A stretch of 62,226 bases of DNA from an uncultured Candidatus Saccharibacteria bacterium (GTDB lineage Bacteria > Patescibacteriota > Minisyncoccia > Phycocordibacterales > UBA5272), in NCBI GenBank assembly GCA_964577655.1, contig CAZNZR010000001.1:1-62226 (forward strand), written 5' to 3'. Below, piece by piece: positions 25,099-40,395 of this stretch. The notes under the pieces were generated by a model. The model was not told where the DNA came from. It saw only the letters and a list, made by a program, of their open reading frames with translations, and did no database searches. The position numbers were made by a program, and so were the translations under genes. How positions within the stretch are numbered: position 1 is the stretch's first letter; every line of letters starts with the position of its first letter.

Positions 25099-26157
25099 CT
25101 ATCCCATTATCCCTCCACCAATTAGTATATTATTTTTATAAAAAACTAATGATTGTCCTTTTGTGTATATTATGCTCCTTTCACCTTTAAAATAGTCGAA
25201 TTCTATTTCAAGCTCTTTCGCTTTCTTTTTTTCTTTTATACTCTTTATTTTTATTTTTACTAGATTTGCATGATATCTCTCTGCTATAGAATATATATTC
25301 CCTTTCTCTAAGCTCTTTAATAGATTAATATTTTCAAGAAAAATCTTATTTTCTTTTTGTGCTTTCAAATTTTCTGAGACATATAAAATATTAGTTTTTA
25401 TATCTTTATTAATAATATATTTACCGTTAATCTTTTCACCTATCGTATAAAAAAATACGCCATCATGCTCTCCAATATTTTTATTAAAATCAATATCTGT
25501 TATATTACCCTTTTTATTCTTTATAAATTCTTTTAGAAAATCTTTCACATCTATCTTACCGATAAAGCATAGCCCTTGAGAATCTTTTTTCTTTGCTGTG
25601 GCTAGATTATTTTTGAGAGCGATATCTCTAATTTCTGATTTTAATAGATGACCTACTGGAAATATTATTTTAGAAAGTTGCTTTTTATTAAGTGTCCAAA
25701 GGAAATAGCTTTGATCTTTAGTGAGATCTTTTCCTTTTTGTAAATTCTCATCTTTTATTTGTGCATAATGACCTGTGGCCACATAATCAGCTCCATTCTT
25801 GAGTGCCCAATCTAAAAACGCTCCAAATTTTACTTCTTTATTACAAAATACATCCGGATTTGGTGTGCGACCAGCTTTGTATTCCCTTATCATGTAGTCT
25901 ATTACTCCTTCTTTGTATTCTTTTTCCAGATCAAGAGTAATAAAAGGGATCTCTAGCTCACTACACACTCTCATAGCGTCCCTTCTATCTTCTTTCCATG
26001 TACATTCAATAAAATCAGGCTGCCAGACTTTTATAAATACTCCAGTCACATCATATCCTTTTTGCTTCAACAATAAGGCAGCAACAGAAGAATCCACTCC
26101 TCCCGACATTCCTACAAATACTTTTTTCTTTTTATTCTTTGAATTATTTTTTTGCAT
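25099..26157 (-). CDS. mnmA: tRNA-specific 2-thiouridylase
   Basis: PP-loop 'VGMSGGVDSSVAALLL', 'TPNPDVFCNKEVKF', 'ATGHYA', 'KDQSYFL', 'DSQGLCFIG'. Confidence 0.93.
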   Translation of the reverse strand: MQKNNSKNKKKKVFVGMSGGVDSSVAALLLKQKGYDVTGVFIKVWQPDFIECTWKEDRRDAMRVCSELEIPFITLDLEKEYKEGVIDYMIREYKAGRTPNPDVFCNKEVKFGAFLDWALKNGADYVATGHYAQIKDENLQKGKDLTKDQSYFLWTLNKKQLSKIIFPVGHLLKSEIRDIALKNNLATAKKKDSQGLCFIGKIDVKDFLKEFIKNKKGNITDIDFNKNIGEHDGVFFYTIGEKINGKYIINKDIKTNILYVSENLKAQKENKIFLENINLLKSLEKGNIYSIAERYHANLVKIKIKSIKEKKKAKELEIEFDYFKGERSIIYTKGQSLVFYKNNILIGGGIMG

Positions 26158-26158
26158 T

Positions 26159-26713
26159 TTAACTTGCTCTCATTAACTTTTTATACACTTCTACCAGAGC
26201 TCTCGTATCAGCGAGTGCGGTATGCGCTTTTGCATTTTCTACTTTTAATAATTCACACAAAAACTTTAAAGAGAATTTATCAGCTTGTGGCGCATCATAA
26301 AGTCTAGCAAAAGCGATAGAAATGGTATCGAGCTTTCCATAGTGCATATTATTTTCAACTCCGGTCTTCTGATAAGCCTTAGCTACAAAATTATAATCAA
26401 AAACTAAATTATGAGAAACAAAAGTACAACTTTCTGCTTTTTTATTAAAATCTTCTAAAACATTTTTAAGTGGAGAAGCAAAAATCCAATCGGCTTCATT
26501 GTATCCATTGATACGAAGTGCTTCTTCTTCTGCTAGATCAAGTCTTTCCGGCTTTATCTTCCATTCGTATTCGCCTAATATTTCTATACTAGGACCCTTA
26601 CCTTCTCTTTCTATTTGTTTTACAACAATAAGAGCGAGCTCTATTATTTCATGTTTTTCAAAATCTGTACCCGTAGTCTCCACATCTACAAATGCTAAAT
26701 TGTGTACTTTCAT
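26159..26713 (-). CDS. DEDD-family 3'-5' exonuclease (DnaQ/epsilon-like)
   Basis: ExoI 'FVDVETTG', ExoII 'FVSHNLVFDYNF', ExoIII 'HTALADTRAL'. Confidence 0.8.
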   Translation of the reverse strand: MKVHNLAFVDVETTGTDFEKHEIIELALIVVKQIEREGKGPSIEILGEYEWKIKPERLDLAEEEALRINGYNEADWIFASPLKNVLEDFNKKAESCTFVSHNLVFDYNFVAKAYQKTGVENNMHYGKLDTISIAFARLYDAPQADKFSLKFLCELLKVENAKAHTALADTRALVEVYKKLMRAS

Positions 26714-29583: not shown

Positions 29584-30624
29584 CTACTTAATAGAATATT
29601 TGCCGTCTTTATCTTTTTTAAAATACTTTGGATCTTGAAGATTAATTATAACAGTATTTGCTTTGACAAGTCTTTTTGCTAATACCTTTTCTACTATATC
29701 TGTCTTAGACATAGGCTTGCTATTTTCTTTTAAGATTTGAGTTATAACATCTCTTACAACTCCTGCTGCATGACCCCACTCTTTTAATCCATACATACCT
29801 CGTCCGACAAGGACAAATCTTTTATCTTTAATTAATTCATTGTGACATGTCGCTATATTTGTCTTTTTCTTAAATACTTTAGTGATTTCATTTGCAACAT
29901 CTTTAAAGTGCATAGGCTTACCGTTCTTTCTGACCACAAGATAAGCATAATCTTTGACTCCTCTTGCTTTTATATGAGGAGAGGTAACTTTACCCCATTC
30001 TCCAAGATCATTCTTATCAACCATCTTTGATATAGATAGATATCTGTGAATTATGTCTTTATTATTTTTGTATTCATCAACGAGCTGATCTAGATTTGAT
30101 ACAAATTTTTCTAAAATAACTTCTTCTTGCAAAAGTTCATCATCCCCTATTGATGAATGTAAAGTATTTAGTGAATCTCTTATATGGTCCGAAAGAAGAT
30201 CGTCAATACTCCAGTGAGAATGAAAATCATCCGATTCTTTTATTTTAGTGAAATGTCCTCCTATTACAAGATAAAGATTAATATGATTTTGAATTACCTT
30301 ATCTTTTGAAATGTGATTCATTAAAGTGTCCTCATGAACTACAGAGCCTAGTCTTTGCATTATGTCTTTTAGTTCATCAAAAACAAAAGTGCTCTCTCTG
30401 TATTCAGGAGATTTTTTTATGGTAGCAAGAGCAAAATTTTCAATCTGTCGTACTCTTTCGCGAGTAATATCATAATTTTTTCCTATAGCCTCGAGAGTCA
30501 TTCTCTTTTCGCTCTCAAGACCATAGCGATTCGTAACTATATCTCTCATTCTAGGATTTAAAGAAGAAAGAAGCTTCTTTGAAATCTGCTTTGGCTTAAA
30601 TGATATTGTTGATATTTCCGTCAT
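29584..30624 (-). CDS. DNA-binding protein: sigma-70 region-4-like HTH plus HARE-HTH/winged-helix domains
   Basis: 'MTLEAIGKNYDITRERVRQIENFAL' is region 4.2-like. 'KPMHFKDVANEI...FVLVGRGMYGLKEWG' is the HARE-HTH pattern seen in RpoE delta. A further C-terminal wHTH-like 'MSKTDIVEKVLAKR'. No sigma region 2. Confidence 0.6.
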   Translation of the reverse strand: MTEISTISFKPKQISKKLLSSLNPRMRDIVTNRYGLESEKRMTLEAIGKNYDITRERVRQIENFALATIKKSPEYRESTFVFDELKDIMQRLGSVVHEDTLMNHISKDKVIQNHINLYLVIGGHFTKIKESDDFHSHWSIDDLLSDHIRDSLNTLHSSIGDDELLQEEVILEKFVSNLDQLVDEYKNNKDIIHRYLSISKMVDKNDLGEWGKVTSPHIKARGVKDYAYLVVRKNGKPMHFKDVANEITKVFKKKTNIATCHNELIKDKRFVLVGRGMYGLKEWGHAAGVVRDVITQILKENSKPMSKTDIVEKVLAKRLVKANTVIINLQDPKYFKKDKDGKYSIK

Positions 30625-30726: not shown

Positions 30727-33700
30727 CTAAATAACTATATTTATCAGCCTATTTTTGACGATTATAATTTTCTTAATTTGCGCTTCACTAGTAATATATT
30801 TTTGATACACTTCTGTACTTTTTACCGATTCTTCCACTTCTTCATCACTACTATCTGGCTTTATAATAAAAGTCCCTCTCATTTTTCCTGAAATCTGTAT
30901 ACTCATCTCTATCTCTTCTTTTTTAATTTTTGATACATCTACTTCTGGCCATTCTGATAAATGAACAGAGATTTTATTCTCTAAAATATTTTGATATATC
31001 TCTTCAGAGATATGCACTGCAAATGGAGAAAGTATCTGGATAAATTTAGTGAAAGTATTTTTAGATATACTATTACCCTTCTTGATCTCTTCTTCAAAAG
31101 TATTGAGGCAGATCATAAGCTGAGCTATAGCAGTATTGAATCCGAATTTTTCTATATCTTCACCGACTTTTTTGATAGTCTCATTTATGATCCTTTCTGT
31201 TTCTTTACTGTCTTCTACCTCTTCATTTAAATTTATTTTTTCTGCGAGACTGTAAACTCGTTCTAAAAATCTAGATACTCCTGCCATGCTATTTGTATTC
31301 CAAGCAATAGACTTTTCAAATGGACCCATGAACATCTCATAAGTTCTCATCGCATCACATCCATATTCTTTTATCACATCATCTGGATTTACTACATTAC
31401 CATATCTTTTGCTCATCTTCTTACCATCTTCGGCCATGATTAATCCTACAGTTTGTAATTTAGAAAATGGTTCATCGTAATTTACGAGTCCTTTATCAAA
31501 TAAAAATTTATGCCAAAATCTAGCGTATATCAGATGACGAGTAGCATGCTCTGCACCTCCTACATAAAAGTCTACAGGACTCCACTCCTTTTCTAATTCT
31601 TTATTTACAAATTTTTCATCATTCTTTGGATCAATATATCTGAGGTAATACCAAGAGCTTCCCGCCCATTGCGGCATAGTATTTGTCTCTCTAAAGAATT
31701 TTTTGATTTCTAAATTCTTATTCTTTTTAGCTAAAACATTTATCCATTTATTATTTTCTAAATAAGTAATCTTCTCTATTTCAAATCCAAATTTTTCTAG
31801 AATATTTTTTAATTCATTTTCATTGTAAAATGAAAAGAATCTATATCCCCCTTTTCTTTCCTCTTCCAGTTCACCTTCTCCATTTTTTAGTCTTAGATAT
31901 AGATAGCCATTATCATTTAAAGCTAAATTAATTTTAGTTATAATTTTTTCGAAATTATATCTTTCAGAATGTAATAATGATGCCATAGATAAGACTCCAT
32001 CATATTTTTCATTATGAAAATCGTCTAATAGCGGATCAATTTTTATAAATTCAAGACCTTTATCTATATTTATTTTAGAAAATGAATCTACAATATCTGA
32101 AGCAATAATATCAACTCCTTCATTTTTAAGATAACTAGCATCTCTACCGGAAGCAGAACCAATCTCTAAAACTTTTTTTCCTTTTAATTTTTCCACAATA
32201 AAATCAGATTCCTCTTTCCATTCTCCAGATACTTCTTGTACTGTTTCTGAAATATATGTCTCAAAATTTTCCTTATATGTATTTATAGTTTTTAATTCTC
32301 TCTCAGAATGAGCTCCAGATATACTTTCAAATTCTCCTTCATTATTTATAAATCCATAAACTTCTACCCAATCTTTTATATTTGAAAGTGGAGACTCTCC
32401 ATTATCCGTCGGCTCATAATTTTCTACATTTGGAAGAATTACAGGTAAATCTTTATCAGCTACCGCATAACTTTTCCTGTTCTCATCAAACACAATAGGA
32501 AATGGTTCTCCCCAATATCTCTGCCGCGCAAATACCCAATCTTTCAATTTATATTTTGAAACTTCTTTACCATCAACATGACCAACTATTTCGGGTATAG
32601 CGTCTTCTGATAATAATCCATTAACCCATGAGGCAGAATTATAAACTTTTCCATATCCTGTATATATTTTATCTATAGGTTCACCTATTGGTCTTTCTAT
32701 TACATCCCTAATCTCCAAATTATATTTCTTCGCGAATTCATAATCTCTCTCATCGTGAGCTGGTACAGCCATGATTGCGCCAGTACCATAGTCACTCAAA
32801 ATATAATTCGCAATATAAATTGGAACTTCTTCTCCATTCGCAGGATTGATAGCTTTAATACCTGTATCAATTCCTTCTTTTTCTAATTTAGACATGTCAA
32901 AGTCTATCGTCCTCTCTTTTTCTTCTTGCTCTAGCTTTATTATAAATTTCTTTATATCATCACTCGCATCCCAGCCATTCTCTATCCACTCTTTTGCGAG
33001 ATTGTAGGATATAGCCATAAATGTACAACCAAACAAAGTGTCAGCACGAGTTGTAAAGACTTTTAAAAATAAAGGCTGAAATCTATAAACATAAACAATA
33101 GATTCATTTGTAACATAATCTCCGTAATATTTTTTATATCTTTCCAATCTTTCTTCTATAGAATTATCTTTTTCATGTCCAGGATAATCTAAGGGTAATT
33201 CTCCTAATTTAAATTCTGAGATTTCTATTATTCTAGCTTTAGTAAATTCTTTTTGGTTTTCCTGCTTTCCATCTGCCCAATCGATTAGACTTACAACGTC
33301 CCCGACAATGATATTCTTTTTTTCTCCAATTCTAAAAGTGACATTCTTTTTTCCTTCTTTAATTAAAGAAACTAATTCTGGTCTAAATTTAAATGATTCT
33401 AAATTAATACTTCCTTCAACTTTAATCTGAAAATCTATTTCACTTCCTTCACTTTTTCCAATCCAATTTCTCTGAAGCTCTTTAATATGTGACTCCCAAT
33501 TAAGTTTATCAAGATCAGCTAAAAGTCTATCAGCATAATCTGTGATACGAATAGTCCATTGTCTTAATTTTTTCTTTTCTACAATTGTACCGCAACGCTC
33601 ACAAGTATTACCATCAAGATCTTCGTTCGCAAGTCCAGTCTTGCAAGTAGGACACCAATTAATAGGATCAAATGATTCATAGGCTAGCCCATCTTTATAC

Positions 33701-34146
33701 ATCTGCTTCCACATCCATTGTGTCCATTTATAATATTTTGGATCAGTAGTATTTATTTCACGATCCCAATCATAATTAAGCCCGAGCATCTCTATTTGCT
33801 CTTTATATCTTGCTACATTTTTACTTGTAGCGATATTAGGATTAATTTTATTTTTTATAGCAAATTGCTCTGCAGGAAGTCCAAATGCGTCCCAGCCCAT
33901 AGGGTGAAGTACATTGTATCCTTGCATCTTTTTCATTCTAGAGTATACATCTGTAGCAATATATCCTTTTGGATGACCAACGTGAAGTCCTTCACCTGAT
34001 GGATAAGGAAACATATCAAGAATATAAAATTTACCTTTTGTACTAGAAAAGTCATTAGAGGTCTTGTTGGTCCCGTTCTCCTTCCAAAACTTCTGCCACT
34101 TTTTTTCTATTTCGCTATAGTCTAATTTTGAATTTAATTTGGTCAT
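30727..34146 (-). CDS. leuS: Leucyl-tRNA synthetase carrying two large in-frame insertions (ASCH-like and SAM-methyltransferase-like)
   Basis: HIGH 'HVGHPKGY', KMSKS 'KKMSKRYGN'. Editing motifs 'TTRADTLFG' and 'GTGAIMAVPAHDERDYEFAKKY'. 'RETNTMPQWAGSSWYYLRY'. At 1139 aa it is far longer than the roughly 800-870 aa I recall as typical for bacterial LeuRS. Confidence 0.95.
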   Translation of the reverse strand: MTKLNSKLDYSEIEKKWQKFWKENGTNKTSNDFSSTKGKFYILDMFPYPSGEGLHVGHPKGYIATDVYSRMKKMQGYNVLHPMGWDAFGLPAEQFAIKNKINPNIATSKNVARYKEQIEMLGLNYDWDREINTTDPKYYKWTQWMWKQMYKDGLAYESFDPINWCPTCKTGLANEDLDGNTCERCGTIVEKKKLRQWTIRITDYADRLLADLDKLNWESHIKELQRNWIGKSEGSEIDFQIKVEGSINLESFKFRPELVSLIKEGKKNVTFRIGEKKNIIVGDVVSLIDWADGKQENQKEFTKARIIEISEFKLGELPLDYPGHEKDNSIEERLERYKKYYGDYVTNESIVYVYRFQPLFLKVFTTRADTLFGCTFMAISYNLAKEWIENGWDASDDIKKFIIKLEQEEKERTIDFDMSKLEKEGIDTGIKAINPANGEEVPIYIANYILSDYGTGAIMAVPAHDERDYEFAKKYNLEIRDVIERPIGEPIDKIYTGYGKVYNSASWVNGLLSEDAIPEIVGHVDGKEVSKYKLKDWVFARQRYWGEPFPIVFDENRKSYAVADKDLPVILPNVENYEPTDNGESPLSNIKDWVEVYGFINNEGEFESISGAHSERELKTINTYKENFETYISETVQEVSGEWKEESDFIVEKLKGKKVLEIGSASGRDASYLKNEGVDIIASDIVDSFSKINIDKGLEFIKIDPLLDDFHNEKYDGVLSMASLLHSERYNFEKIITKINLALNDNGYLYLRLKNGEGELEEERKGGYRFFSFYNENELKNILEKFGFEIEKITYLENNKWINVLAKKNKNLEIKKFFRETNTMPQWAGSSWYYLRYIDPKNDEKFVNKELEKEWSPVDFYVGGAEHATRHLIYARFWHKFLFDKGLVNYDEPFSKLQTVGLIMAEDGKKMSKRYGNVVNPDDVIKEYGCDAMRTYEMFMGPFEKSIAWNTNSMAGVSRFLERVYSLAEKINLNEEVEDSKETERIINETIKKVGEDIEKFGFNTAIAQLMICLNTFEEEIKKGNSISKNTFTKFIQILSPFAVHISEEIYQNILENKISVHLSEWPEVDVSKIKKEEIEMSIQISGKMRGTFIIKPDSSDEEVEESVKSTEVYQKYITSEAQIKKIIIVKNRLINIVI

Positions 34147-37067: not shown

Positions 37068-37433
37068 TTATTTTACTAATGTTCCTTGATGAAAAATTAT
37101 TTTTAATTTTTCATTATAATTTTTCCAAATAGAGCTTCGTAGTGATGAAACTATAGTTTTATTTTTTACATCTATTTTTTTAACTTTATAAGTCACTAAA
37201 AATATTTCTGATGATAATTCTTTTACTTTTAAATTAAAGGCTTTCCATTCAAAGTATTTTTGTCGAGGTAAATCTTTTAACACTTCTGCTTTAGTAATTG
37301 TAGTTCCATTAGAAGTAAACTCTATAAAATCATCTGATATTAAGTCATTCAATCTTCTTTTATCTTTTCTAACTTTTGGATCTAATAATTCTATTTCTAG
37401 ATCTTTGACTTTTTTAATTAGTTTTTTATTCAT
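37068..37433 (-). CDS. NTF2-like (DUF4440/SnoaL-like) protein embedded in the suf operon
   Basis: Pattern 'LNDLISDDFIEFTSNGTTITKAEVL...' and terminal 'KIIFHQGT' are typical of the DUF4440 cone fold. Its ATG overlaps the sufC stop by 8 nt. Confidence 0.55.
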   Translation of the reverse strand: MNKKLIKKVKDLEIELLDPKVRKDKRRLNDLISDDFIEFTSNGTTITKAEVLKDLPRQKYFEWKAFNLKVKELSSEIFLVTYKVKKIDVKNKTIVSSLRSSIWKNYNEKLKIIFHQGTLVK

Positions 37434-39906: not shown

Positions 39907-40305
39907 TTATACTAATAATTTTTTTATCTCTTCTATTGAAAATTTTACTTCTTTAGCAAAATTGAATCCCTTATTATCTGTTAAAGGAATCAGATGGACA
40001 TGTACATGAGACACTTCTAACCCTTCTATTCCAATAAAGATTTTCTCAAAATTTAATTTGTCTTTTAATTTTTCTTCCAAAATCTTTGCTACCTTTTTAG
40101 CTGTTAGCATTAATTCTAAATATTTCTCCTCACTAAGATTAAAAATATAATCCTCCTCTTTTTCTTCCTCTTTGAATTTAGGAACAACTAAAGTGTGTCC
40201 ATCTCGTACAGGATTGATATCAAGAAAAGCAATAAAATTCTCATCTTCATAAAAGATATCAGCCGGAATTTCTCTGTTTATAATTCTAGTAAAAATAGAA
40301 GACAT
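39907..40305 (-). CDS. HIT-family (histidine triad) nucleotide hydrolase
   Basis: 'EIPADIFYEDENFIAFLDINPVRDGHTLVVPK' and the triad 'HVHVHLIP'. Start set to 'MSSIFTR' (40305). The upstream 35 codons of the track ORF are the antisense reading of tRNA-Tyr. Confidence 0.85.
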   Translation of the reverse strand: MSSIFTRIINREIPADIFYEDENFIAFLDINPVRDGHTLVVPKFKEEEKEEDYIFNLSEEKYLELMLTAKKVAKILEEKLKDKLNFEKIFIGIEGLEVSHVHVHLIPLTDNKGFNFAKEVKFSIEEIKKLLV

Positions 40306-40311
40306 ATTTTG

Positions 40312-40395
40312 TGCGCCGGGCAAGATTTGAACTTGCGTAGCCCGAAGGGCGACAGATTTACAGTCTGTTGTAATTGACCACTCTACCACCGACGC
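40312..40395 (-). tRNA. tRNA-Tyr (anticodon GTA), type II with long variable arm
   Basis: Hand fold of the reverse complement. Acceptor GCGTCGG/CCGGCGC (one G-U) plus A. Anticodon stem ACAGA/TCTGT with loop CTGTAAA. Variable arm GCCC-ttc-GGGC. T arm GCAAG-TTCAAAT-CTTGC. Confidence 0.9.

What the first reader, a model, noticed from the sequence alone, without database searches (positions are those of the whole stretch)
31702..32349. A class I SAM-methyltransferase module inserted in-frame inside leucyl-tRNA synthetase
ORF 30727..34146 is clearly LeuRS, with HVGH, KMSKR, intact CP1 editing motifs and 'SSWYYLRY'. At 1139 aa it is roughly 280 aa longer than the bacterial enzymes I remember. E. 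coli and Thermus LeuRS have only a short loop or Zn knuckle between 'DLPVxLP...' and 'R(E/D)TDTMD'. At that position, residues ~600-815 here read like a complete Rossmann methyltransferase. Motif I is 'KKVLEIGSASGRDASYL'. The acidic end of beta2 is 'VDIIASD'. A motif IV-like block is 'YDGVLSMASLLH', followed by 'LNDNGYLYLRL' and 'YRFFSFYNENELKNILEKFGFEI'. There are no stop codons or frameshifts, and the flanks are colinear LeuRS, so this is one polypeptide. I know of no described aaRS with an embedded methyltransferase. An obvious hypothesis is a synthetase-tethered tRNA(Leu) modification activity, or methylation of another bound substrate.
Basis: partly seen in the sequence, partly recalled or inferred. 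Interest (0 to 1): 0.85.

Follow-up and report, generated by a model that had tools for sequence, protein, structure and literature searches.

The report
Swappable methyltransferase cassette inside leucyl-tRNA synthetase
A complete small methyltransferase enzyme really is spliced in-frame into the leucine-charging enzyme of an ultra-small (CPR-type) bacterium. It is one of several interchangeable enzyme "cassettes" that near-identical strains gain and lose in this essential gene, and what it does is still unknown.

Summary
ORF 30727-34146 (minus strand, 1139 aa) is a bacterial-type LeuRS. Residues 610-813 (window 31708-32319) are a whole class I SAM-methyltransferase fold (Pfam E 2.8e-12; AF2 pLDDT 95.5; Foldseek E 5e-14). 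The domain replaces a 10-residue surface loop.

- A second insert, an ASCH domain (aa 243-360).
- Two sister-strain contigs with 97-99.7% identical flanking DNA carry leuS alleles without the methyltransferase. One has a NUDIX domain in CP1 and the other has no large insert.
- Related Parcubacteria-type LeuRS have three insertion hot spots holding NUDIX, ASCH, hydrolase, DUF559 or methyltransferase cassettes. These differ even between LeuRS whose cores are at least 95% identical.

The methyltransferase type is rare: five sequences found, and 2 of 185,579 GTDB species representatives. It derives from a free-standing ~200-aa family whose nearest relatives methylate small molecules and which is often fused to NUDIX, GNAT or HIT domains.

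The insert is under purifying selection (dN/dS 0.18), but the family's invariant GCGSG SAM loop is altered in every embedded copy.

I read it as a dispensable, recombining accessory enzyme domain, more likely acting on a small ligand than on tRNA-Leu. The tRNA hypothesis is neither supported nor excluded. I found no published description.

The parts
30727..34146 (-). leuS ORF, 1139 aa: bacterial-type leucyl-tRNA synthetase carrying two inserted domains
   Evidence: ORF. TIGR00396 916 bits against a cutoff of 548. Aligns to T. thermophilus LeuRS 1h3n in four colinear blocks, E 4.6e-177.
33421..34146 (-). N-terminal catalytic half (aa 1-242), with HVGH (33973-33984) and the ZN1 Cys knuckle CPTC...CERCG (33589-33654)
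   Evidence: It is 98.7-100% identical in protein to the sister-strain alleles P0008 and P0027.
33067..33420 (-). Insert 1 (hot spot A, just before CP1): ASCH domain, aa 243-360
   Evidence: Pfam PF04266 at E 4.4e-8, 34 bits against GA 21. Absent from the sister alleles L001 and L088; DNA identity drops at window 33430. Homologous to ASCH cassettes at hot spot C of other LeuRS. GC3 is 0.144 against 0.25-0.26 in the core.
32320..33066 (-). CP1 editing domain plus the following catalytic-core segment (aa 361-609). Hot spot B inside it is empty here (98 aa; a NUDIX sits there in about half of relatives)
   Evidence: PF13603 at E 2.6e-53. Insert-length table. Only 86-92% DNA identity to the sister strains, against 97-99.7% in the flanks.
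31708..32319 (-). Insert 2 (hot spot C): complete class I SAM-methyltransferase domain, aa 610-813, replacing a 10-aa loop between GEFESI and EIKKFFR
   Evidence: Pfam Methyltransf_23 at E 2.8e-12. AF2 pLDDT 95.5. Foldseek 3e23/3h2b at E 5e-14 to 4e-13. Junction compared with L001. GC3 0.118.
32296..32316 (-). N-terminal linker motif GAHSERE (aa 611-617), specific to the embedded clade
   Evidence: G, H, S, R and E are invariant in all 5 embedded copies and absent from free-standing homologues.
32137..32172 (-). Motif I (SAM loop) VLEIGSASGRDA, aa 659-670. A variant of the family's GCGSG
   Evidence: G57 and G59 are 100% conserved in 107 free-standing homologues. The embedded copies read GSASG, GSGFC or GSAFC.
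32095..32109 (-). End of beta-2, IIASD (aa 680-684), with the conserved acidic residue D684
   Evidence: D is invariant in both free-standing and embedded copies.
31969..32004 (-). Motif IV block YDGVLSMASLLH (aa 715-726)
   Evidence: D716 and ASLLH are retained. The family's Trp (98%) is replaced by L, I or V in all embedded copies.
30727..31707 (-). C-terminal catalytic half (SSWYYLRY, KMSKR), anticodon-binding domain, C-terminal domain and stop codon (aa 814-1139). No leucine-specific domain
   Evidence: High DNA identity resumes at the 3' end of the methyltransferase insert: 99.3% to L001 from window 31711 and 92.9% to L088 from 31704.

Best explanation
SHOWN. A whole ~200-aa class I SAM-methyltransferase has been spliced in-frame into a surface loop of the LeuRS catalytic domain. 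It belongs to a family of free-standing small methyltransferases common in CPR/DPANN organisms. The loop corresponds to T. thermophilus LeuRS residues 477-492. The domain replaces a 10-residue loop. The LeuRS catalytic, editing and anticodon-binding motifs are intact. The insert is an accessory, strain-variable cassette. Sister strains with 97-99.7% identical flanking DNA carry leuS alleles without it. Related LeuRS hold NUDIX, ASCH, alpha/beta-hydrolase, DUF559 or methyltransferase domains at three fixed hot spots.

INFERRED. The cassettes are exchanged by homologous recombination through the conserved LeuRS sequence that flanks them. The domain is therefore dispensable for leucylation. It is nevertheless a selected, folded, working module, and probably still binds SAM or a related ligand through an altered motif I. 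Held beside the synthetic site, it most likely acts on a small nucleotide-like or amino-acid-like ligand. Candidates are a by-product, a damaged metabolite or an adenylate-mimicking inhibitor of LeuRS. I think this more likely than a dedicated tRNA-Leu modification enzyme. The substrate is unknown.
For: Fold and identity.

Origin: the insert aligns end to end with free-standing 202-210-aa methyltransferases.

Rarity of the embedded type: only 1 LeuRS-like cluster among the top 150 of 48,278 profile hits in 1.84 billion representatives, and 2 loci in 185,579 GTDB species representatives.

Strain variability:
- Window vs L001: flanks are 98.4-99.6% identical. The centre of leuS, from window 33430 to 31711 (aa ~240-812), is divergent and carries a different insert set.
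- L088 is a third allele with the same breakpoints.
- 5 of 13 LeuRS pairs with at least 95% identical cores differ in insert state.

Hot spots and their contents. The same NUDIX and ASCH subtypes occur at different hot spots.

Foreign or recombinant origin:
- GC3 is 0.12-0.14 in the inserts against 0.25-0.26 in the core.
- In the P0032/P0387 pair, dS is 0.78 in the methyltransferase against 0.05-0.37 in the flanks.

Selection for function:
- dN/dS is 0.175.
- Insert identity between embedded copies (47-57%) equals that of the LeuRS core.
- 66 positions are invariant among the embedded copies, 32 of them clade-specific.
- Y16, R60, D61, D76, D108, ASLLH, G148 and W193 (insert numbering) are all retained.

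Small-ligand leaning:
- The nearest characterised relatives are small-molecule N-/O-methyltransferases.
- Free-standing relatives are fused to NUDIX (4 cases), GNAT, HIT and a chloramphenicol-phosphotransferase-like domain.
- The insert is acidic.
- GNAT and HIT enzymes are known immunity factors against aminoacyl-adenylate-mimic antibiotics, and a Parcubacteria HIT protein confers microcin C resistance (PMC7157772).
Against: - There is no biochemical evidence of any activity.
- Motif I is altered in every embedded copy (G57A or G59C, C56S, D53E), and the family's Trp is lost. SAM binding could therefore be weakened or gone.
- Generic class I methyltransferase folds cannot be assigned a substrate from sequence or fold. 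The tRNA methyltransferases Trm9 and METTL6 are fold neighbours at similar scores.
- Purifying selection could partly reflect only the need not to misfold an essential host enzyme.
- The position of the domain relative to the active site and the tRNA could not be modelled. In the full-length AF2 model the insert has pLDDT 27-55.
- The genomic context of free-standing homologues is uninformative.
Confidence: 0.45

Rival explanations
1. The embedded domain is a synthetase-tethered tRNA methyltransferase that uses LeuRS as its tRNA-Leu recognition module. It would methylate a base or ribose of bound tRNA-Leu, or the aminoacyl moiety of Leu-tRNA.
For: - It is covalently tethered inside the catalytic domain of a tRNA-binding enzyme.
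- There is a precedent for a class I methyltransferase borrowing an aaRS for tRNA recognition: the METTL6-SerRS-tRNA complex, PDB 8p7b, is among the fold hits (PMC11479938).
- Trm9 is also a fold neighbour.
- The 32 clade-specific invariant positions include 5 Lys and 2 Arg, which could form a new binding surface.
- Strain-variable tRNA modification could be an immunity trait.
Against: - No tRNA-methyltransferase family model is matched at any curated threshold.
- The nearest sequence relatives are small-molecule methyltransferases.
- The domain is acidic, net charge -10.
- It is absent from strains about 99% identical in the flanks.
- The same loop holds NUDIX or ASCH in other lineages.
- Motif I is degenerate.
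Confidence: 0.2
2. The domain is a catalytically inert methyltransferase fold kept as a structural, ligand-sensing (SAM/SAH) or protein-interaction module that modulates LeuRS.
For: - G57 and G59 of the SAM loop are 100% conserved in 107 free-standing homologues. Every embedded copy has lost one of them, and the loop varies among copies (GSASG, GSGFC, GSAFC).
- W111, D53 and C56 are also replaced.
- Embedded copies match fewer and weaker Pfam methyltransferase models than free-standing ones.
- The 32 clade-specific invariant residues suggest a new interface.
Against: - The ribose-binding Asp (D684), D716, the ASLLH block and the other family invariants are all kept.
- From my own knowledge, not tested here: active methyltransferases with atypical motif I exist, for example catechol O-methyltransferase with GAYCG.
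- dN/dS is 0.175, and divergence is as slow as in the LeuRS core.
Confidence: 0.17
3. The domain is a functionally independent passenger. It is an ordinary housekeeping small-molecule methyltransferase that happens to be expressed from inside a permissive loop of an abundant essential protein, with no functional link to LeuRS. The fusion would be driven by genome streamlining, or the cassette would be selfish.
For: - The same permissive loops accept unrelated domains.
- Inserts come and go quickly.
- Free-standing versions are common in the same kinds of organisms.
Against: - The LeuRS-embedded methyltransferase, NUDIX and ASCH domains form their own subclades. They reappear at different LeuRS hot spots rather than being random draws.
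- The embedded methyltransferase has 32 clade-specific invariant residues and conserved linkers.
- Only LeuRS appeared as a large-protein host among the top hits.
Confidence: 0.15
4. The arrangement is an artefact: a chimeric assembly, a frameshifted pseudogene, or an intein-like element that is removed from the mature protein.
For: The sequence is metagenome-derived. The insert has a lower GC content than its flanks.
Against: - The ORF is uninterrupted.
- Five distinct sequences from ENA, Logan, JGI and NCBI share the same junctions and linkers. One was seen on 6 contigs.
- The insert is under purifying selection.
- Pfam finds no Hint or endonuclease domain. The junction residues (ESI|SGAH ... 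NLE|IKK) lack the intein Cys/Ser ... His-Asn-Cys/Ser/Thr signature.
Confidence: 0.02

Closest known systems
Natural insertion modules of bacterial LeuRS: the CP1 editing domain, the ZN1 domain, the leucine-specific domain, and (from my memory of the T. thermophilus structure papers) a second Zn knuckle at about residues 439-487
   Same: All are discrete modules inserted in loops of the Rossmann-fold catalytic domain, and LeuRS tolerates their presence or absence between lineages. The methyltransferase sits where T. thermophilus has residues 477-492. The upstream Cys pair (HCEACG) is visible in that alignment and is absent here.
   Different: Those modules serve aminoacylation or editing and are fixed within lineages. 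This one is an unrelated enzyme fold with its own cofactor site, and it varies between strains of one species.
Isoleucyl-tRNA synthetase with an N-acetyltransferase domain (NCBIfam NF040702, ileS_w_GNAT)
   Same: It is a class Ia synthetase carrying an accessory small-molecule-modifying enzyme domain in the same polypeptide. It is recognised as an 'exception' model by NCBI (listed).
   Different: The host is IleRS and the enzyme fold is GNAT. I could not examine its insertion site or its variability. The window protein scores only 67 bits against that model's cutoff of 1999, so it is not a member.
METTL6-SerRS-tRNA(Ser) complex (PDB 8p7b; PMC11479938)
   Same: A class I SAM-methyltransferase is physically coupled to an aminoacyl-tRNA synthetase. 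It is a fold neighbour of the insert. It is the best precedent for the tRNA-modification reading.
   Different: The complex is non-covalent, eukaryotic and involves a class II synthetase. METTL6 has dedicated tRNA-binding elements. Sequence identity to the insert is only 14-15%.
RPA2492 of Rhodopseudomonas palustris (PDB 3e23, SAM complex) and the free-standing ~200-aa methyltransferase family of Parcubacteria and DPANN archaea
   Same: These are full-length homologues of the insert: profile E 6e-38, Foldseek E 5e-14, and 34-41% identity to P0001-P0003.
   Different: They are free-standing, have an invariant GCGSG motif and a conserved Trp, and have no known function. The embedded clade has 32 invariant residues of its own plus the GAHSERE linker.
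Immunity enzymes against aminoacyl-adenylate-mimic antibiotics: MccE (GNAT), MccF, and MccH (HIT) (PMC7157772)
   Same: They are small enzymes that inactivate synthetase inhibitors, and Parcubacteria encode active MccH-like proteins. Free-standing relatives of the insert are fused to GNAT and HIT domains.
   Different: No methyltransferase is known in this role. Those enzymes are separate proteins, not inserts in the target synthetase. The link here is by association only.

Membership tests
Bacterial-type leucyl-tRNA synthetase (TIGR00396 leuS_bact) | Whole-protein score above the curated equivalog cutoff | tested here: met
   916.4 bits against a cutoff of 548.4, E 1.6e-275.
Bacterial-type leucyl-tRNA synthetase (TIGR00396 leuS_bact) | Class I signature motifs HIGH and KMSKS | tested here: met
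   HVGH at aa 55-58 and KMSKR at aa 910-914.
Bacterial-type leucyl-tRNA synthetase (TIGR00396 leuS_bact) | CP1 editing domain inserted after ZN1, with the Thr-rich and GTG...AHD motifs | tested here: met
   PF13603 at E 2.6e-53. FTTRADTLFG and GTGAIMAVPAHDERD are present. Colinear with 1h3n.
Class I (Rossmann-like, seven-strand) SAM-dependent methyltransferase | Profile match above the curated threshold | tested here: met
   Methyltransf_23 at 47.1 bits against GA 27; Methyltransf_11 at 22.0 against 21.2.
Class I (Rossmann-like, seven-strand) SAM-dependent methyltransferase | Seven-stranded beta sheet flanked by helices, superposable on solved SAM-bound enzymes | tested here: met
   AF2 pLDDT 95.5 with strands at 50-54, 71-76, 91-94, 107-113, 135-147, 180-188 and 193-200. 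Foldseek TM 0.70-0.80 to 3e23 and 3h2b.
Class I (Rossmann-like, seven-strand) SAM-dependent methyltransferase | Motif I glycine-rich loop GxGxG | tested here: inconclusive
   It reads GSASG here, with the middle Gly replaced by Ala. Other embedded copies read GSGFC or GSAFC. Free-standing relatives read GCGSG with 100% conserved glycines.
Class I (Rossmann-like, seven-strand) SAM-dependent methyltransferase | Acidic residue at the end of beta-2 that binds the SAM ribose | tested here: met
   D684 (IIASD) is invariant in all embedded and 99% of free-standing sequences.
Class I (Rossmann-like, seven-strand) SAM-dependent methyltransferase | SAM binding and methyl transfer | not testable with these tools
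   This needs recombinant protein, with ITC or DSF using SAM/SAH and methyltransfer assays.
Dedicated tRNA methyltransferase families (TrmD, Trm5, TrmB, TrmL, Trm9/CmoM, METTL6-type) | Match to a family-specific profile at its curated threshold | tested here: not met
   No tRNA-methyltransferase model appears among the Pfam or NCBIfam hits for the insert or the whole protein. Trm9 and METTL6 are only generic fold neighbours at 14-21% identity.
TehB tellurite/selenite methyltransferase | Score above the curated equivalog cutoff | tested here: not met
   The best score is 28.5 bits against a cutoff of 303 (NF008992). PF03848 scores 20.4, exactly at its domain GA, over a partial match only.
Intein / homing element | Hint domain, N-terminal Cys/Ser, C-terminal His-Asn followed by Cys/Ser/Thr | tested here: not met
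   No Hint or LAGLIDADG hit. The junctions read ...GEFESI|SGAHSE... and ...NKNLE|IKKFFR.
MADS defence system protein mad2 (PADLOC) | Full-length match to the 492-position model, and system context | tested here: not met
   Only positions 277-426 of 492 (the methyltransferase domain) match, at E 5.6e-11. There are no partner genes nearby.

The most novel reading that the evidence does not exclude
LeuRS of Parcubacteria-type (CPR) bacteria may be a platform for swappable 'on-target' immunity cassettes. In this reading the small enzyme domains (NUDIX, ASCH, serine hydrolase, methyltransferase) are held next to the synthetic and editing sites. There they destroy or modify LeuRS-directed toxins, such as leucyl-adenylate mimics, or attacks on tRNA-Leu. 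Strains would exchange them by recombination in an arms race. The methyltransferase cassette would inactivate such a ligand by methylation, or protect tRNA-Leu by modifying it.
Probability: 0.15. Interest if true: 0.9.

Novelty: new variant of a known kind. Interest (0 to 1): 0.7.

Why it matters
Aminoacyl-tRNA synthetases are among the most conserved enzymes known. Their accessory domains are usually fixed features of large lineages. Here an essential synthetase carries whole foreign enzymes inside its catalytic and editing domains. Near-identical strains differ in which ones they carry: methyltransferase plus ASCH, NUDIX, or none.

If the cassettes are functionally coupled to LeuRS, three things could follow:
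- a new layer of translation quality control;
- a metabolite-repair function;
- a defence against synthetase-targeting toxins in organisms that depend on hosts for nucleotides and amino acids.

The three natural alleles in one genetic background are a ready-made experiment. Even if the domains are only passengers, the three loops are naturally validated permissive sites for engineering LeuRS fusions. The pattern is also an unusually clear case of recombination-driven domain shuffling inside an essential gene.

Tried and rejected
1. Full-length AF2 with 90 LeuRS sequences. The core is confident (pLDDT above 90). Both inserts are modelled poorly (27-55) because only 3 sequences cover them. This gives no information on where the methyltransferase sits relative to the active site or the tRNA.
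2. I tried to deepen that alignment by adding free-standing methyltransferases (alignment A3). MAFFT smeared them across the whole LeuRS, so I discarded it.
3. Searching with the insert alone in the word-indexed protein database did not return the embedded copies. They were found through the whole-protein search and the exhaustive HMMER search.
4. The metagenome DNA-pattern scan returned only free-standing relatives at 36% identity or less.
5. The gene neighbourhoods of free-standing homologues (P0141, P0003) were uninformative: isolated genes among housekeeping or unannotated genes.
6. PADLOC gave only a generic methyltransferase-domain match to mad2. The phage collection gave two weak hits at 28-29% identity. 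Neither supports a defence-system or phage origin.
7. The window holds no second copy of the methyltransferase.
8. I considered and rejected the intein, frameshift and assembly-chimera readings.
9. Eight literature searches found no description of methyltransferase, NUDIX or ASCH inserts in LeuRS. The library lacks most subscription journals, so absence is not proof.
10. I could not establish from the tools where the hot-spot C loop lies relative to bound tRNA in solved LeuRS-tRNA complexes, because no coordinates were available.
Full report
**1. The observation**

The window holds an uninterrupted 1139-codon ORF at 30727-34146 on the minus strand. It is a bacterial-type leucyl-tRNA synthetase. 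NCBIfam TIGR00396 scores 916 bits against a cutoff of 548. Pfam finds the class I catalytic domain, the LeuRS editing domain (E 2.6e-53) and the anticodon-binding domain. HVGH, KMSKR, the CP1 motifs and SSWYYLRY are all present.

Pfam also finds Methyltransf_23 at aa 642-792, E 2.8e-12, 47 bits against a gathering score of 27.

Alignment to T. thermophilus LeuRS (1h3n, E 4.6e-177) gives four colinear blocks:
- query 11-242 = Tt 7-237
- query 361-590 = Tt 243-476
- query 819-906 = Tt 493-580
- query 910-1139 = Tt 637-876

This shows two inserts, at aa 243-360 and 591-818. It also shows that the leucine-specific domain (Tt 581-636) is missing.

**2. What the insert is**

Comparison with a sister-strain allele fixes the boundaries. 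Residues S610 to L813 (window 31708-32319) replace a 10-residue loop (ENKNIKVEGK) between GEFESI and EIKKFFRETN. There are no flanking repeats.

The insert aligns from end to end with free-standing methyltransferases of 202-210 aa at 34-41% identity. These belong to a large family found in Parcubacteria, Nanoarchaeota and Woesearchaeota.

With a 110-sequence alignment, AlphaFold2 predicts the insert at pLDDT 95.5 and pTM 0.92 as a seven-strand class I methyltransferase. The best Foldseek hits in the PDB are the SAM complex of RPA2492 (3e23, E 5e-14) and cg3271 (3h2b, TM 0.8). After them come small-molecule methyltransferases: toxoflavin, glycine/sarcosine, bacillithiol, TehB and DhpI. The tRNA enzymes Trm9 and METTL6 appear at similar scores.

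A family profile hits 3e23 at E 6e-38 over its full length. The next hits are phosphoethanolamine N-methyltransferases at about 1e-23. No curated family cutoff is reached for TehB, UbiG or others, and no tRNA-methyltransferase family is matched.

**3. How common it is, and whether it is real**

The whole-protein search found the window's own protein (P0004) and two other LeuRS with a methyltransferase at the same point: P0032 (1205 aa) and P0035 (1159 aa). The exhaustive HMMER search of 1.84 billion representatives returned 48,278 methyltransferase hits. Only one LeuRS-like cluster (P0241) was in the top 150. P0387 (1218 aa) is in the same 90% cluster as P0032 and was seen on 6 contigs.

Among 185,579 GTDB species representatives, only two loci carry the embedded type. 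They are L006, an intact 1218-aa ORF, and L007.

The five embedded copies share the linkers G-x-H-S-[ED]-R-E and KWIN-x-x-A-[KR]-K and are 48-62% identical. That is about as conserved as the LeuRS core between the same proteins, which is 52-66%. This excludes a chimeric assembly. The junctions and Pfam results exclude an intein.

**4. The wider pattern: three hot spots and strain-level turnover**

I mapped insert lengths in the 120 closest LeuRS. Those few that carry source names are called Parcubacteria or Paceibacterota. Three hot spots appear:
- **Site A**, just before CP1, has a baseline of 13-28 aa. It is occupied in 10 of 120 by ASCH, alpha/beta or serine hydrolase, or DUF559.
- **Site B**, inside CP1, has a baseline of about 95 aa. 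It is occupied in 53 of 120; every site-B insert checked with Pfam (5 proteins) is a NUDIX domain.
- **Site C**, after GEFES, has a baseline of 50 aa. It is occupied in 17 of 120 by methyltransferase, NUDIX or ASCH.

The same NUDIX and ASCH subtypes occur at different sites:
- P0017 site C against P0032 site B: 39% identity, E 1e-29.
- P0047 site C against P0014 site B: 32% identity, E 4e-27.
- The window's site A ASCH against P0019 site C: 33% identity, E 1e-12.

Turnover is fast. 5 of 13 LeuRS pairs with at least 95% identical cores differ in insert state, as do 13 of 32 pairs at 90-95%.

The clearest case involves this window.
- Contig L001 (Logan DRR379934) is syntenic with it. DNA identity is 98.4-99.6% over window 35588-33430, 31711-26159 and 26135-21264.
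- Its leuS (P0008, 995 aa) has no ASCH and no methyltransferase, and carries a NUDIX in CP1.
- Only window 33430-31711 (aa ~240-812, from the start of site A to the end of site C) is divergent. The CP1 pieces there are 86-89% identical.
- A third contig, L088 (JGI), is 97.4-99.7% identical in the flanks and has the same breakpoints (33430 and 31704). It carries none of the large inserts.

Both inserts in the window have GC3 of 0.12-0.14 against 0.25-0.26 in the LeuRS core. In the P0032/P0387 pair, the cores are 94-98% identical with dS 0.05-0.37. The methyltransferase is only 77% identical, with dS 0.78.

Together these results indicate allelic replacement by homologous recombination through the conserved LeuRS segments. 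They also show that the methyltransferase is dispensable for the essential function.

**5. Is the domain functional?**

Evidence for function:
- dN/dS is 0.175.
- Divergence is as slow as in the LeuRS core.
- 66 of 206 positions are invariant among the five embedded copies. 32 of these are clade-specific, including the GAHSERE linker.
- Family invariants are retained: Y16, R60, D61, the ribose-binding Asp (D684), D716, ASLLH, G148 and W193.

Evidence against full activity:
- In 107 free-standing homologues the SAM loop is GCGSG with 100% conserved glycines. Every embedded copy has lost one of them: GSASG in three, GSGFC in one, GSAFC in one.
- D53E, C56S and the loss of the family Trp are universal in the embedded clade.

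From my own knowledge, some active methyltransferases have atypical loops, for example catechol O-methyltransferase. This does not prove inactivation, but it does show a shift at the cofactor site.

**6. What it most likely does**

Several points lean towards a small nucleotide-like or amino-acid-like substrate rather than tRNA:
- The nearest characterised relatives methylate small molecules.
- Free-standing relatives are fused to NUDIX (P0217, P0284, P0346, P0375), GNAT (P0310), HIT (P0372) and a chloramphenicol-phosphotransferase-like domain (P0370).
- The insert is acidic, pI 5.0, net charge -10.
- The loop it occupies holds NUDIX or ASCH in other lineages.

GNAT and HIT enzymes are known immunity factors against adenylate-mimic synthetase inhibitors. 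A Parcubacteria HIT protein confers microcin C resistance (PMC7157772). That makes an 'on-target detoxification' reading conceivable, but the link is only by association.

It cannot be excluded, but nothing found here specifically supports it.

My estimates for the main readings:

| Reading | Probability |
|---|---|
| Accessory, probably active, small-ligand methyltransferase | about 0.45 |
| tRNA-directed | about 0.2 |
| Inert or sensing module | about 0.17 |
| Unlinked passenger | about 0.15 |
| Artefact | about 0.02 |

**7. Novelty**

Accessory domains in synthetases are well known, and NCBI even has a model for an IleRS with a GNAT domain. I found no description of a methyltransferase embedded in a synthetase, nor of NUDIX, ASCH or hydrolase cassettes in LeuRS. 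I treat it as a new variant of a known kind. The most unusual aspect is the strain-level, recombination-driven swapping of whole enzyme domains inside an essential gene.

**8. Limits**

- The window's organism is inferred only from the named relatives of its LeuRS and from its gene content.
- The spatial relation of the insert to the active sites and the tRNA is unknown.
- No activity has been measured.
- The sister 'strains' are metagenomic contigs from different samples.

Noticed in passing
window 33067-33420 (-), aa 243-360 of the same LeuRS: A second in-frame insert, an ASCH domain (Pfam E 4.4e-8), sits just before the CP1 editing domain. Both sister-strain alleles lack it. It is homologous (33% identity, E 1e-12) to ASCH cassettes that occupy the methyltransferase's loop in other LeuRS.
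   Followed up: partly
L001 1443-4430 (P0008) and about 53 of the 120 closest LeuRS: A ~150-aa insert sits inside the CP1 editing domain (hot spot B) in about half of the related LeuRS, including the sister strain of this window; it is a NUDIX hydrolase domain in all five such proteins scanned with Pfam. NUDIX cassettes at hot spots B and C are each other's closest relatives. Their function in an editing domain is unexplained.
   Followed up: partly
P0014, P0114, P0116 (relatives of the window LeuRS): Hot spot A can also hold alpha/beta or serine hydrolase domains (PF12695, PF06821) or a DUF559/Vsr-like endonuclease domain (PF04480, E 4.8e-32). P0114 carries ASCH and a hydrolase in tandem.
   Followed up: no
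window ~26135-26159, against L001 9005-9568: The sister strain L001 has an extra 187-aa GNAT acetyltransferase gene between the RNase_T-family exonuclease gene and mnmA. The window lacks it. This is another strain-level indel of a small enzyme gene.
   Followed up: partly
window 37068-37433 (-): A 121-aa DUF4440 ORF lies between the suf-type ABC ATPase gene and the FeS_assembly_P gene. The corresponding position in sister contig L088 lacks it: about 400 nt here against 46 nt there.
   Followed up: partly
L088 7460-10203: In the third sister contig, leuS is called as a 767-aa product followed by an overlapping 174-aa ORF. This suggests a frameshift, either a sequencing error or a pseudogenised allele.
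   Followed up: no
P0217, P0284, P0346, P0375, P0310, P0372, P0370 (free-standing relatives of the insert): The free-standing methyltransferase family is repeatedly fused to NUDIX, GNAT, HIT and chloramphenicol-phosphotransferase-like domains, and also occurs as tandem methyltransferase pairs. This hints at a shared role in modifying nucleotides or xenobiotics.
   Followed up: partly
window 39907-40305 (-) and tRNA-Tyr 40311-40395 (-): A 132-aa HIT-family gene lies immediately downstream of tRNA-Tyr(GTA). The mechanical ORF call (167 aa, TTG start) runs over the tRNA. HIT proteins of Parcubacteria have been shown to detoxify microcin C (PMC7157772).
   Followed up: no
window 29584-30624 (-): The gene downstream of leuS encodes a 346-aa protein with a Sigma70 region 4 domain at its N-terminus and a HARE-HTH domain. 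This is an unusual pairing. The gene is conserved in the sister strains.
   Followed up: no
window 30727-34146 (-), aa 552-560 and 906-910: This LeuRS lacks the leucine-specific domain. It also lacks the Cys pair (HCEACG in T. thermophilus) upstream of the insertion loop. The ZN1 knuckle (CPTC...CERCG) is retained and invariant among relatives.
   Followed up: partly
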